A stretch of DNA of 64,000 nucleotides from Escherichia coli (GTDB taxonomy: Bacteria; Pseudomonadota; Gammaproteobacteria; Enterobacterales; Enterobacteriaceae). Shown here piece after piece: positions 9,697-13,968 of this stretch (positions are counted from its first letter, which is position 1; each line of letters begins with the position of its first letter). The notes below the pieces were generated by a model. The model was given only the letters and a program-made list of their open reading frames with translations, was not told where the DNA came from and did not search any database. Location of the stretch: assembly GCF_001677475.2 (NCBI RefSeq), contig NZ_CP015229.1. One strand, written 5' to 3'. A program made the position numbers and the translations under genes.

Positions 9697-12348
9697 TTAG
9701 CCGGTATTACGCATACCTGCCGCAATCCCGGCAATAGTGACCATTAACGCCTGCTCGACGCGAGGATCCGGCTCATGGCCTTCTTTTTCTGCCTGGCGGG
9801 AGCGGTGCAGCAACTCGGCCTGCAATACGTTCAGCGGGTCGGTGTAAATATTCCGTAGCTGAATAGACTCTGCAATCCACGGCAGATCGGCCATCAGATG
9901 GGAATCGTTGGCAATCGCCAGCACCACTTTGATGTCTTCTTCTTGCAGATTGCGTAACTCTTTACCTAACGGCCACAGTGCTTTGTCTACCAGACGTTGA
10001 TCATAGTATTCCGCCAGCCACAGGTCTGCTTTGGCGAATACCATTTCCAGCATACCCAGACGCGTCGAGAAGAACGGCCAATCGCGGCACATAGCCTCCA
10101 GCTCGCTCTGTTTGCCGTCTTCGACCACTTTTTGCAGCGCCGTACCTGCACCCAGCCAGGCGGGGAGCATCAGGCGGTTTTGCGTCCAGGCGAAAATCCA
10201 CGGAATGGCGCGTAGTGACTCGACGCCGCCGGTTGGGCGACGTTTCGCCGGACGTGAACCCAACGGCAGTTTGCCCAGTTCTTGTTCCGGCGTAGCGGAG
10301 CGGAAGTAAGGCACAAAATCTTTGTTTTCACGTACGTAGCCACGGTAGAGATCGCAGGAGATGACTGACAGTTCATCCATAATGCGACGCCAGCTCTCTT
10401 TCGGCTCAGGTGGTGGCAGCAGGTTGGCTTCCAGAATCGCCCCGGTGTACAGCGACAGGCTGCTGACGGTGATTTCTGGCAGACCATATTTAAAGCGGAT
10501 CATCTCGCCCTGTTCAGTCACGCGCAGGCCACCTTTCAGGCTTCCTGGCGGTTGTGACAGCAGCGCCGCATGAGCAGGTGCGCCGCCACGACCAATGGAA
10601 CCGCCGCGACCGTGGAACAACGTCAGCTCAATACCCGCTTTTTCGCAGGTTTTGATTAATGCATCCTGTGCCTGATATTGCGCCCAGGAAGCTGCCATCA
10701 CGCCCGCATCTTTTGCTGAGTCGGAATAGCCAATCATCACCATCTGTTTGCCCTGAATCAGGCCGCGATACCAGTCGATATTGAGCAGCTGGGTCATGAC
10801 ATCGTTGGCGTTGTTCAGGTCATCGAGAGTTTCAAACAGCGGAGCAACCGGCATTGCAAACCCGATACCCGCTTCTTTCAGCAGCAGGTGGACAGCCAGC
10901 ACGTCGGACGGCGTTTTCGCCATCGAGATCACGTAGGCGGCAATGGAGCCTTGCGGCGCTTCGGCAATCACCTGGCAGGTATCGAGCACTTCGCGCGTTT
11001 CGGCGCTTGGTTGCCAGTTGCGCGGCAGAAGCGGACGTTTGGAGTTCAGTTCGCGGATCAGGAACGCCTGTTTGTCGGCCTCTGACCAGCTTTCGTAGTC
11101 GCCGATACCGAGGTAGCGGGTCAGCTCGCCCAGCGCTTCGGTATGGCGGGTGCTCTCCTGACGGATATCAATACGGACCAGCGGTACGCCGAAACATTTC
11201 ACGCGGCGCAGGGTGTCGAGCAGATCGCCGTTGGCGATAATACCCATGCCACACGCCTGAAGTGACTGGTAGCAAGCGTAGAGCGGTTCCCACAGTTCTT
11301 CGTTTTGTGTCAGCAGGCCTTCTGGTTTTGGCAGTTCTTCGCCTTTCAGGCGCGCTTCCAGCCATGCCTGTGTCGCCATCAGGCGAGAACGCAGGTTTTT
11401 CATCAGATAGCGATACGGTTCTGCGGCACCTTCTTCGCCAACCAGCGCCAGCAGTTCAGGGGTCGCTTCAACCATCGACAGTTCAGAAACCAGCACCTGA
11501 ATATCTTTCAGGAACAGATCGGTGGCTTTCCAGCGACTGAGCAGCAGGACGTGGCGGGTGATATCGGCAGTGACGTTCGGGTTGCCGTCGCGGTCACCGC
11601 CCATCCACGAGGTAAAACGGACCGGAACAAATTCGACGGGCAGTTTGTAGCCGAGATTCTCTTCCAGTTGTTCGTTCAGTTCGCGCAGGTAATTTGGTAC
11701 GCCTTGCCACAGGCTGTTTTCTACTACGGCAAAGCCCCATTTGGCTTCATCTACCGGGCTTGGACGCAGCTTACGGATTTCATCGGTATGCCATGACTGG
11801 GCGATCAACTGGCGCAGGCGGCGCATCAGCTGGTTGTGTTCGTAGTCAGCGATATCTTTGTTATCGAGCTGTTTTAAACAGGCGTTCACTTCCACCATTT
11901 TGTGGATCAGCGTACGACGGGTAATTTCGGTTGGGTGAGCCGTGAGGACCAGTTCCAGCGACAGCGATTCCACTGCTTTTTTGATGGTGTCTTCGCTCAG
12001 TTCCGGCTGGTTTTTCAGTTTACGCAGGGTGCGGGCGATCACTTCCGGGTTGCTGGCAGCTTCGCCTTTCGGCGAAATGCTGTGGTATTGCTCGGCGGTG
12101 TTGGCCAGGTTCAGGAACTGACTAAACGCACGCGCAACGGGCAGCAGCTCGTCGTTCGACAAATTTTGTAAGGTGGTGAGCAACTCCTGGCGGTTAGCAT
12201 CATTGCCAGCGCGTGAAGATTTGGACAACTTACGGATAGTTTCTACGCGTTCAAGAATGTGTTCTCCCAACGCATCCTTGATGGTTTCTCCCAGCACTTT
12301 GCCGAGCATACTGACATTACTACGCAATGCGGAATATTGTTCGTTCAT
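9697..12348 (-). CDS. ppc: Phosphoenolpyruvate carboxylase
   Basis: 883-aa [32 protein letters not shown].. through C-terminal ..GMRNTG. Confidence 0.97.
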
Positions 12349-12675
12349 ATTACCCCAGACACCCCATCTTATCGTTTGATAGCCCTGTATCCTTCACGTC
12401 GCATTGGCGCGAATATGCTCGGGCTTTGCTTTTCGTCGTCTTTTATAAAGCCACGTAAAAGCGGTGACGTCAAATGCTGCGAAATCGCTTCAGCAAACGA
12501 ATAAATAGCAGGAATTTACGTCATTAAATTCACGACGCTTTAAATAAGCGTAACTTATGGGAATGTTAAAAAATCGCCTCAAGTAACACCAAAGAGTTAT
12601 GAGTTGTAGTTACCATTTGGGCAATCATCTGAGATTGCTGACAAACTCGTTTACGGGTCAGTATGGGCACGGTTT

Positions 12676-12720
12676 TCCCCTCACCCTAACCCTCTCCCCG
12701 AAGGGGCGAGGGGACTGTCC
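12676..12720. repeat. GC-rich palindromic (REP-like) element in the ppc-argE intergenic region
   Basis: Imperfect inverted repeat cccctcaccctaaccctctcccc / ggggcgagggg around a gaag loop. Confidence 0.4.
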
Positions 12721-12760
12721 GTGCGCTTGCATGGCTTTGTCATCAGCCTGATTTGCTTTT

Positions 12761-13912
12761 TTAATGCCAGCAAAAATGATGAATTACCTGGGTTATCAGT
12801 TCGCGGGTGGGCTTGATAAACCGTGTTTCCAGATATTCATCAGGCTGATGAGCCTGATTAATTGAGCCAGGGCCCAGAACCAGCGTCGGGCATAACGTTT
12901 GAATAAACGGCGCTTCGGTACAGTAATTCACCACTTCGGTCTTTGCTCCGAGCAATTTCTCAACTACTTCAACCAGTTGATGATTTGGCGGGCATTCATA
13001 GCCAGGGATCGGCGGATGCAGCTCGTCGACCGTCAGACGACCCGGCCAGCGTTCGCTCACCGGAGCCAGCGCATCGTTGAGTAGGCCATTAAGTTCATTG
13101 AGTGTCATGCCCGGCAGCGGACGAATATCCATATGCAACTCACAGCAAGCGCAGATACGGTTAGCCGCGTCGCCGCCGTGAATATGACCGAGGTTAAGCG
13201 TGGGGTAAGGCACGGTAAATGCCTCATAGTGATAGCGTTCTTTAAGATTGTCACGCAGTTGCAGGATATGACCGATGGCGTCGTGCATCAGTTCGATAGC
13301 GTTAACTCCGCGTGCTGGATCGCTGGAGTGGCCCGACTGGCCCTGAATACGGATGGCGTTAGAGATATGACCTTTATGTGCGCGTACCGGTTGTAGTGAC
13401 GTCGGTTCGCCAATGATGGCGCAATCCGGGCGCAGGGCGGTAGTTTCGGCAAAATAACGCGCTCCGGCCATACTGGTTTCTTCATCGGCAGTCGCCAGAA
13501 TGTAGAGCGGTTTTTTCAGTTTCGTGACGTCGACATCGCGTAGCGCATCAAGGATAAACGCAAAAAAGCCTTTCATGTCGGCGGTGCCTAAGCCGTAAAG
13601 CTTGCCGTCATGCTCCGTCAGTGTAAACGGATCGCGCGTCCAGCGTCCGTCATCAAATGGCACCGTATCGGTATGCCCCGCCAGCAACAAGCCGCCAGCC
13701 CCCTGTCCGGTACTTGCCAGCATATTAAATTTGTTGCGAGTTCCTGGCACAGGCTGCACTTCCACATTGAAGCCTAAATCTTTAAACCAGTCCGCCAGCA
13801 GAGTGATTAAATCTGCATTGCTTTGATCGAGTGCCTCTTCCGTGGCGCTTATTGAAGGTGTGGCAATCAGAGCACGGTAAATCTCGATAAATGGCGGTAA
13901 TTTGTTTTTCAT
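12761..13912 (-). CDS. argE: Acetylornithine deacetylase
   Basis: ORF-track 12761..13951 trimmed to Met at 13912 ([15 protein letters not shown]..), 383 aa. Confidence 0.93.
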
Positions 13913-13927
13913 TGTTGACACACCTCT

Positions 13928-13968
13928 GGTCATGATAGTATCAATATTCATGCAGTATTTATGAATAA
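13928..13968. promoter_or_regulatory. ARG boxes (ArgR operators) in the divergent argE / argCBH control region
   Basis: Tandem AT-rich 18-bp half-palindromes, e.g. ATGAATAAAAATACAC, between the divergent starts. Confidence 0.6.

What the first reader, a model, noticed from the sequence alone, without database searches (positions are those of the whole stretch)
12676..12720. REP-like GC-rich palindrome downstream of argE
cccctcaccctaaccctctcccc..ggggcgagggg forms an imperfect palindrome in the otherwise unremarkable 412-bp ppc-argE spacer. It resembles the short extragenic palindromes common in E. coli and could serve as the argE 3' stabiliser or terminator.
Basis: seen in the sequence. Interest (0 to 1): 0.15.

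Follow-up and report, generated by a model that had tools for sequence, protein, structure and literature searches.

The report
BoxC triplex-motif repeat downstream of argE
The GC-rich palindrome after argE is one copy of BoxC, a known dispersed E. coli repeat (also called PIT, TMECO or HPG1) that can fold into hairpin, triplex or G-quadruplex forms; it is not a REP element or a terminator, so the finding is ordinary.

Summary
The sequence is real and non-random. It has 11-nt arms with 10 of 11 paired, and the RNA fold z-score is about -3 on both strands. On the argE-sense (-) strand it reads CCCTCGCCCC-TTC-GGGGAGAGGG-TTA-GGGTGAGGGG (12712 to 12677). This is the published "type A mm" TMECO / BoxC / PIT / HPG1 motif; the exact 36-mer appears 43 times in the supplement of Holder 2015. 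Family-typical flanks extend the unit to about 12665-12728.

The unit hits a median of 19 places per E. coli genome. Its 23-nt purine half occurs exactly in many distant phyla.

It is not a REP. K-12 and about 95% of 5,426 complete E. coli genomes carry true REP/BIME palindromes at this position. Only about 285 genomes (5%) carry the 162-bp BoxC-bearing allele.

It has no U-tract, and the family was reported to lack terminator activity. At the K-12 adk copy, the mapped RNA 3' end lies at a separate terminator 40 nt beyond BoxC.

Most likely it is a structure-forming repeat with no dedicated function at this locus. A modest role as an exonuclease barrier for argE mRNA remains untested.

The spot just after argE holds different palindromes in different genera. 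The family is already known, and interest is low.

The parts
12677..12712 (-). 36-nt BoxC / PIT / TMECO 'type A mm' core. Read on the - strand: CCCTCGCCCC-TTC-GGGGAGAGGG-TTA-GGGTGAGGGG.
   Evidence: Sequence. A regex for the family architecture hits only here in the window. The architecture matches Table 1 of PMC4666352. The exact 36-mer is listed 43 times in that paper's supplement.
12703..12712 (-). Block 1, the pyrimidine block CCCTCGCCCC. It is the Watson-Crick partner of block 2, with 9 of 10 pairs; the G.A mismatch is the 'mm' of type A mm.
   Evidence: register check.
12690..12699 (-). Block 2, the central purine block GGGGAGAGGG. Loop 1 (TTC) is at 12700-12702.
12677..12686 (-). Block 3, the purine block GGGTGAGGGG. 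All 10 contacts with block 2 are compatible with a purine-motif triplex (G.G, A.A, T.A). It can alternatively pair Watson-Crick with block 1. Loop 2 (TTA, which defines type A) is at 12687-12689. Blocks 2 and 3 together form a G3+N3G3+N3G3+N3G3+ quadruplex motif.
   Evidence: HPG1 sequence in PMC5100583.
12713..12728 (-). Family-conserved 5' flank AAGCGCACGGACAGTC. It contains the outer-stem arm at 12719-12724.
   Evidence: Alignment by eye of the window copy with K-12 copies. The 14-nt core of the flank is identical to the adk-hemH copy, and the flank is similar at fepB-entC, zntA-tusA and yjdP-phnP.
12665..12676 (-). 3' flank (G)AAAACCGTGCCC. It contains the outer-stem arm at 12667-12672 that closes the whole unit.
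12595..12757 (.). Allele-specific segment of about 162 bp: 70 nt unique, then the BoxC unit, then about 27 nt unique. In most E. coli it is replaced by 51, 101 or 347 bp of REP/BIME sequence.
   Evidence: Alignments A1 and A2. Span classes 701/751/997 versus 811. The 70-nt unique part is single-copy and present in only 285 of 5,426 genomes.
12349..12594 (-). Conserved ppc-proximal part of the spacer (ppc leader and promoter region). It is shared with K-12 and, from about CACATTCCCATAAG onward, with other genera. It is not part of the repeat.
12761..13912 (-). argE (acetylornithine deacetylase), 383 aa. The element lies in its 3' flank.
9697..12348 (-). ppc (phosphoenolpyruvate carboxylase), the downstream co-directional gene.

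Best explanation
The element is one copy of the BoxC repeat family of Enterobacteriaceae, also published as PIT element, TMECO type A mm and HPG1. It is a roughly 56-65 bp non-coding unit. Its core is a pyrimidine block followed by two purine blocks. As single-stranded DNA or RNA it can fold into a hairpin (block 1 with block 2 or with block 3), a purine-motif intrastrand triplex, or a three-tetrad G-quadruplex. Here it sits in a 162-bp segment between the argE stop and the conserved ppc control region. That segment is an allelic alternative to the REP/BIME cluster carried by about 95% of E. coli. Most likely it has no dedicated regulatory job at this locus. It is a repeat, possibly selfish, that persists in a permissive gene-end zone. 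Its main consequence is inferred to be at the DNA level: transient non-B structures that favour local rearrangement and allele turnover. As RNA it adds a stable hairpin to any argE read-through transcript, but it is not the terminator. Shown here: family identity, copy number, fold stability, allele polymorphism, absence of a terminator signature. Inferred: neutrality at this locus, and instability as the mechanism.
For: Identity: the three-block architecture and loops match published TMECO type A mm copies, and the exact 36-mer is catalogued 43 times. The purine half equals the HPG1 consensus GGGAGAGGGTTAGGGTGAGGG. The flanks match K-12 copies. Copy number: the 67-nt unit hits 5,425 of 5,426 complete E. 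coli genomes, with a median of 19 places per genome and a range of 2-35. Structure: RNA folds at -37.3 and -36.5 kcal/mol with z about -3. The register gives 9/10 Watson-Crick pairs and 10/10 triplex-compatible contacts, and G4 and hairpin are nearly isoenergetic with DNA parameters. The literature reports triplex formation in vitro by CD and NMR, no stable triplex in vivo by DMS footprinting, and higher variability around TMECO loci than around controls. Locus turnover: the BoxC allele is in 284-285 of 5,426 genomes, and the rest carry BIME alleles with spacers of 301, 351 or 597 bp. Different genera carry REP pairs, BoxC, a GC hairpin or plain terminators just after argE. Not a terminator: and the literature. 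No consistent orientation relative to transcription: among co-directional K-12 contexts, 2 are sense (adk-hemH, ycjD-fabI) and 2 antisense (pstA-pstB, yihS-yihR); the window and Enterobacter argE copies add 2 further sense cases.
Against: No experiment addresses this copy. A hairpin, terminator or repeat of some kind is present after argE in every genus examined. That could mean a stem-loop is selected there, which would argue against pure neutrality. The link between TMECO and instability is correlative in the source paper, and the in vivo footprint did not detect the triplex. The exact conservation of the 23-mer across phyla is hard to explain by neutrality alone.
Confidence: 0.8

Rival explanations
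1. RNA 3' stabiliser: argE transcripts read into the element, and the hairpin of about -37 kcal/mol blocks 3'-to-5' exonucleases, as REP hairpins do, raising argE mRNA stability. This is compatible with the element being a BoxC copy.
For: A stable fold on the argE-sense strand begins 32 nt after the stop. Every genus examined has some stable palindrome right after argE: REP, BoxC, a GC hairpin or a terminator. HPG1 copies lie mostly at gene 3' ends, with six between convergent genes and one between divergent genes.
Against: Orientation relative to transcription is not consistent across copies. None of five K-12 copies checked has a curated Term-seq 3' end next to it. At adk the 3' end is at a separate terminator downstream. 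No family-level effect on RNA polymerase or termination has been reported.
Confidence: 0.2
2. Intrinsic (Rho-independent) terminator of argE.
For: It is a GC-rich stem-loop downstream of a stop codon. Relatives (Siccibacter, the metagenome contig L137) have canonical terminators at the equivalent place.
Against: The tails after the inner and outer stems on the - strand are AAAACCGTGCCC and CCATACTGACCCG, with no U-tract. The scan finds no - strand terminator in 12250-12900. PIT elements are reported to have no terminator activity. At adk, transcripts pass through BoxC.
Confidence: 0.04
3. A REP/BIME element, recognised by a RAYT transposase and bound by gyrase, IHF or Pol I.
For: It is extragenic, palindromic, GC-rich and multi-copy.
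Against: It has no similarity to the REP consensus. The true REPs (GCCGGATGCGGCG...CCTTATCCGGCCTAC) are seen in the K-12, Salmonella and Kluyvera alleles at this same spot, and they do not align with the element. A scan for the REP tail CTTATCCGGCCTAC at up to 2 mismatches found nothing in the spacer.
Confidence: 0.01
4. A DNA-level regulatory switch (duplex / hairpin / G4) that modulates ppc promoter activity or insulates ppc from argE read-through.
For: Hairpin and G4 are nearly isoenergetic. Kaplan et al. proposed such a switch. The G-rich strand is the non-template strand of argE and ppc transcription.
Against: The element lies at least 85 nt upstream of the block conserved across genera that holds the ppc control region. 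About 95% of E. coli lack it at this locus and carry BIME instead. No promoter activity was found for the family.
Confidence: 0.05

Closest known systems
BoxC repeat = PIT element (Hoyne & Maher 2000, 2002) = TMECO type A mm (Holder et al. 2015, PMC4666352) = HPG1 G-quadruplex motif (Kaplan et al. 2016, PMC5100583)
   Same: The three-block core, the TTA second loop, the G.A mismatch of type A mm, the intergenic location, the semi-conserved flanks and the multi-copy dispersal are all the same. The exact 36-mer is already catalogued at other loci.
   Different: K-12 has no copy at ppc-argE. This copy belongs to a minority allele (about 5% of complete E. coli genomes). Loop 1 is TTC, rather than the TTT, CTC or TCT of the K-12 copies.
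REP / BIME (PU) elements of E. coli
   Same: They are also short extragenic GC-rich palindromes, found at gene ends, multi-copy and variable between strains. They occupy the same slot after argE in the alternative allele.
   Different: The sequence is unrelated. REP is a two-arm palindrome with a GTAG/CTAC end, has hundreds of copies, forms tandem clusters and has a known partner enzyme (RAYT). BoxC has three blocks, about 20 copies and no known enzyme.
Rho-independent terminators
   Same: A GC-rich stem-loop just after a stop codon. True terminators occupy the equivalent position in Siccibacter and in a metagenome relative.
   Different: It has no U-tract, and the family is reported to be inactive as a terminator.
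MITE-like composite repeats carrying the same motif in other phyla (for example the roughly 150-nt repeat of Pseudomonas sp. dw_612)
   Same: The 23-nt purine half and the preceding C-block are identical.
   Different: The flanks are species-specific and much longer. The E. coli unit is only about 60 bp.

Membership tests
BoxC / PIT / TMECO | Three consecutive blocks: CCCTC(G/T)CCC(C), a 3-5 nt loop, GGG(G)AGAGGG, a TTA loop (type A) or CCG loop (type B), then GGGTGAGGG(G). | tested here: met
   The - strand 12712 to 12677 matches exactly, with TTC and TTA loops. Compare Table 1 of PMC4666352.
BoxC / PIT / TMECO | Register allows Watson-Crick pairing of blocks 1 and 2 plus purine-motif third-strand contacts between blocks 3 and 2. 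| tested here: met
   9/10 Watson-Crick pairs and 10/10 G.G, A.A or T.A contacts.
BoxC / PIT / TMECO | Dispersed in many copies per E. coli genome. | tested here: met
   Median 19 places per genome, range 2-35, in 5,425 of 5,426 genomes. The literature gives 23 copies in K-12 and 823 in 56 strains.
BoxC / PIT / TMECO | Always intergenic. | tested here: met
   It lies between the argE stop and the ppc start. The overlapping 50-aa ORF has no family hit.
BoxC / PIT / TMECO | Semi-conserved flanks beyond the core (the 56-bp BoxC unit). | tested here: met
   The 5' flank GCGCACGGACAGTC is identical to the adk-hemH copy and similar in others.
BoxC / PIT / TMECO | Forms an intrastrand triplex as an isolated strand in vitro. 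| not testable with these tools
   Reported for type A mm oligonucleotides (Tm 74 C; CD and NMR) in PMC4666352. This copy was not measured.
REP / BIME | Imperfect palindrome of about 35 nt matching the REP consensus, with a GTAG/CTAC end. | tested here: not met
   It does not align with the REP units of the K-12, WB61 and MA11 alleles. There is no CTTATCCGGCCTAC-like site in the spacer.
Intrinsic terminator | GC-rich stem-loop followed directly by a U-rich tract on the transcribed strand. | tested here: not met
   No - strand site in 12250-12900. The tails are AAAACCG... and CCATACTG....
Rfam RNA families | Match to any curated covariance model at gathering score. | tested here: not met
   Best hit was Antizyme_FSE at 18.6 bits against a gathering score of 40, E 0.57, which is chance.
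Canonical G-quadruplex motif (G3+N1-7 repeated four times) | Four G-runs of at least 3 separated by loops of 1-7 nt. | tested here: met
   GGGG-AGA-GGG-TTA-GGG-TGA-GGGG. With DNA parameters, ViennaRNA predicts a G4 at -12.6 versus a hairpin at -9.0 kcal/mol for the core. NMR in PMC4666352 favoured the triplex over G4 for the full motif.

The most novel reading that the evidence does not exclude
Two observations fit active placement better than passive persistence. First, the 23-nt purine half is conserved letter for letter from E. coli to Alpha-, Beta- and Deltaproteobacteria, a Firmicute MAG and an archaeal MAG. Second, the argE 3' flank has been filled repeatedly by different palindromic elements. 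Together they suggest that BoxC-type motifs may be placed by an unidentified sequence- or structure-specific mobilising or recombination system that targets gene-end hairpin zones. The extra flank identity between the argE copy and the adk-hemH copy would then be a trace of copy-with-flanks transfer.
Probability: 0.1. Interest if true: 0.6.

Novelty: already known. Interest (0 to 1): 0.13.

Why it matters
For this window it matters little. The element is a catalogued repeat with no demonstrated function, and it should not be annotated as a REP or as the argE terminator. Three modest points have wider value. The ppc-argE spacer is a clean natural example of two unrelated repeat families (BoxC and BIME) occupying the same slot as alternative alleles within one species. 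The slot has turned over among genera. The family's cross-phylum sequence identity and its means of spread remain unexplained more than 30 years after its first description.

Tried and rejected
- **Rfam.** A permissive scan of 12000-13100 gave only chance-level hits.
- **Terminator and promoter scan.** Nothing was found on the argE-sense strand. The one + strand hit (12719-12734) is at the level expected from shuffles, and no gene precedes it on that strand.
- **Other copies in the window.** There are none at up to 3 mismatches. A family regex found only this copy.
- **Overlapping ORF.** The 50-aa ORF 12599-12751 (+) has no Pfam or NCBIfam hit and was treated as spurious.
- **Term-seq test of the stabiliser/terminator idea.** In K-12 data (PMC7815308), no curated 3' end lies next to the tauD, adk, zntA, yjdP or yhfS copies. 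The adk 3' end is at a downstream terminator. This is negative but weak evidence, because the lists are thresholded and K-12 lacks the argE copy.
- **Orientation bias.** Thirteen K-12 copies at 11 loci showed no consistent sense orientation.
- **Taxonomic census.** It shows breadth only, not counts.
- **Polarity of the two alleles.** Named relatives gave mixed states, and no E. albertii or E. fergusonii sequence was recovered, so which allele is ancestral is unresolved.
- **Window origin.** No complete E. coli RefSeq genome is identical to the window. The best is 99.4% over 20 kb. The exact ArgE and spacer occur in draft assemblies GCA_002516285.1 and GCA_040939905.1.
- **Later literature.** No later functional paper on the family was found under the name TMECO or in an "intrastrand triplex" search.

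Full report
**Observation**

The window has ppc at 9697-12348 and argE at 12761-13912, both on the - strand, separated by a 412-bp spacer. The quoted bases are present: + strand 12677-12713 reads CCCCTCACCC-TAA-CCCTCTCCCC-GAA-GGGGCGAGGGG.

- The repeat finder reports arms 12676-12686 / 12704-12714, 11 nt, 91% complementary.
- An outer stem, GCACGG 12667-12672 with CCGTGC 12719-12724, encloses the element.
- The 81-nt stretch folds as RNA at -37.3 kcal/mol on the argE-sense strand (z -2.99) and -36.5 on the + strand (z -2.82).
- The 23-mer never appeared in 100 shuffles of the window.

**Anatomy**

On the - strand the core (12712 to 12677) is CCCTCGCCCC-TTC-GGGGAGAGGG-TTA-GGGTGAGGGG.

- Block 1 pairs with block 2 at 9 of 10 positions.
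- Block 3 lies antiparallel to block 2 with 10 of 10 G.G, A.A or T.A contacts, which is the purine-motif triplex register.
- Block 1 can alternatively pair with block 3 through a G-T/U wobble. This is the fold RNAfold prefers.
- Blocks 2 and 3 together form a canonical four-tract G-quadruplex motif. With DNA parameters, G4 and hairpin are nearly isoenergetic.

**Family identity**

A full-text search for the 23-mer led to Holder et al. 2015 (PMC4666352). Its Table 1 lists 23 "TMECO" copies in K-12, and 13 of them are the same "type A mm" architecture. That paper equates TMECO with BoxC (1990s) and with the PIT elements of Hoyne and Maher. The exact 36-mer, including the TTC loop, is listed 43 times in its supplement for other strains and loci. 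Kaplan et al. 2016 (PMC5100583) found the purine half again as the HPG1 G-quadruplex motif.

I compared the window copy with 13 K-12 copies fetched by coordinate. The flanks are also family-like. The 5' flank GCGCACGGACAGTC is identical to the adk-hemH copy. The repeat unit in the window is therefore about 12665-12728, wider than the reported 12676-12720. Rfam has no model for it.

**Copy number and spread**

The 67-nt unit hits 5,425 of 5,426 complete E. coli genomes, with a median of 19 places per genome and a range of 2-35. The exact 23-mer also occurs in Alpha-, Beta-, Gamma- and Deltaproteobacteria, a Desulfotomaculum MAG and a Methanomicrobiaceae MAG. It is always preceded by a CCCCTC(T/G)CCCC block and a variable loop, with species-specific flanks. 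This breadth is already published: Holder et al. report the motif in more than 260 genomes.

**The locus is polymorphic**

- Only 284 of 5,426 genomes carry the whole 412-bp spacer.
- K-12 has a 597-bp spacer. The ppc-proximal 246 bp are the same, but the argE-proximal part is three tandem pairs of REP palindromes, a BIME.
- Other E. coli have shorter BIME alleles, with spacers of 301 and 351 bp.
- The allele-specific segment in the window is about 12595-12757. Its 70 nt to the left of BoxC are single-copy and occur in only 285 genomes. The BoxC allele is therefore not a simple insertion into the K-12 type sequence.
- K-12's published list has no TMECO between 4,070,452 and 4,314,285, which agrees.

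The window itself is not identical to any complete E. coli genome. The best match is 99.4% over 20 kb. Its ArgE protein and spacer are identical in two draft assemblies.

**Other genera**

I used named ArgE cluster members to fetch argE-ppc spacers. Immediately after the argE stop:

| Genus or source | Element after argE |
|---|---|
| Salmonella, Kluyvera | REP pair |
| Enterobacter cloacae complex | BoxC type A, same orientation, 15 nt after the stop |
| Klebsiella | GC hairpin |
| Siccibacter, metagenome relative L137 | canonical hairpin plus T-run terminator |

The conserved ppc upstream block begins only at about CACATTCCCATAAG. The argE 3' flank is therefore a slot that different palindromic elements have filled in different lineages.

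**Tests of the proposed function**

*Terminator.*
- No T-run follows either stem on the - strand, and the scan finds no site there.
- PIT elements are reported to lack promoter and terminator activity and to have no effect on RNA polymerase (Hoyne & Maher 2002).
- In K-12 Term-seq data (PMC7815308), none of five copies checked has a curated 3' end next to it.
- At adk-hemH, where BoxC is in the sense orientation 24 nt after the adk stop, the 3' end is at 497939. That is the T-run of a separate terminator, GGCCGGAT-attcat-TCGGCC-TTTT, 40 nt beyond BoxC.

*Strand-specific RNA role.* Among co-directional K-12 contexts, the copies at adk-hemH and ycjD-fabI are sense, and the copies at pstA-pstB and yihS-yihR are antisense. 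The argE copies of the window and of Enterobacter add two more sense cases, giving four sense and two antisense overall. The convergent cases are ambiguous. This gives no support for a consistent sense-strand function.

*3' exonuclease barrier.* This role remains possible and untested. The fact that some stem-loop is always present after argE is the best argument for it.

**Committed explanation**

This is a BoxC/PIT/TMECO/HPG1 copy (confidence about 0.97 for identity). It most likely has no dedicated role at this locus. It persists in a permissive gene-end zone. Its consequence is probably at the DNA level, through transient hairpin, triplex or G4 formation that favours local rearrangement. 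This fits the published excess variability around TMECO loci and the allele turnover seen here. The G-rich strand is the non-template strand of argE transcription and the leading-strand template (GC skew +0.057). Structure formation would therefore be driven by transcription rather than by lagging-strand exposure; this is inference.

**Novelty and score**

The family has been described four times under four names, and its sequence variants are catalogued. The finding is ordinary. The only local additions are:

- the BoxC versus BIME allelism at ppc-argE, with BoxC in about 5% of genomes;
- the turnover of the argE 3' slot across genera;
- the extra flank identity between the argE and adk-hemH copies: a 15 of 16 nt match, TT(G/A)TCAGCAATCTCAG, downstream of the core.

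The unexplained cross-phylum identity of the motif keeps a small chance open for an undiscovered mobilising or targeting system.

Noticed in passing
window about 12377 (-), 29 nt upstream of the ppc ATG: K-12 Term-seq (PMC7815308, supplementary file 3) lists a strong 'orphan' RNA 3' end at 4153127 (-), inside the conserved ppc leader. This hints at a premature-termination or processing site in the ppc 5' UTR.
   Followed up: no
window 12595-12757 versus L001 (K-12), L123, L124: The argE-proximal part of the spacer exists as unrelated alleles in E. coli. A 162-bp BoxC-bearing segment is in about 285 of 5,426 genomes. BIME segments of 51, 101 or 347 bp are in the rest.
   Followed up: yes
L126 343-440 (K-12 adk-hemH) versus window 12630-12730: The window copy and the adk-hemH copy share identity beyond the core: 14/14 nt upstream and 15/16 nt (TT(G/A)TCAGCAATCTCAG) 22-33 nt downstream. 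This is the closest paralogue among 13 K-12 copies and may be a trace of copy-with-flanks transfer.
   Followed up: partly
L133-L146, first 100 nt after argE: Different genera carry different palindromes just after the argE stop: REP pairs (Salmonella, Kluyvera), BoxC (Enterobacter cloacae complex), a GC hairpin (Klebsiella) and canonical terminators (Siccibacter, metagenome contig L137).
   Followed up: partly
L032-L060 (Pseudomonas sp. dw_612): At least 28 copies of the exact 23-mer sit at the right end of a longer repeat of about 150 nt. It has a conserved 5' flank (..GAACACCTCGGTCAGTC) and a second C/G-block further upstream.
   Followed up: partly
L019 (Methanomicrobiaceae archaeon MAG), L063-L064 (Desulfotomaculum MAG): The exact bacterial 23-mer also appears on contigs binned to an archaeon and a Firmicute. 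Contamination or mis-binning was not checked.
   Followed up: no
window 12599-12751 (+): A 50-aa ATG ORF runs through the element (…FPLTLTLSPKGRGD…). It has no Pfam or NCBIfam hit and lies in the allele-specific segment. It is probably spurious, but it is the kind of ORF that gene callers annotate over BoxC copies.
   Followed up: yes
window 12761-13951 (-): The mechanical argE ORF is 396 aa from an upstream ATG. The annotated protein in E. coli records is 383 aa, starting at 13912.
   Followed up: partly
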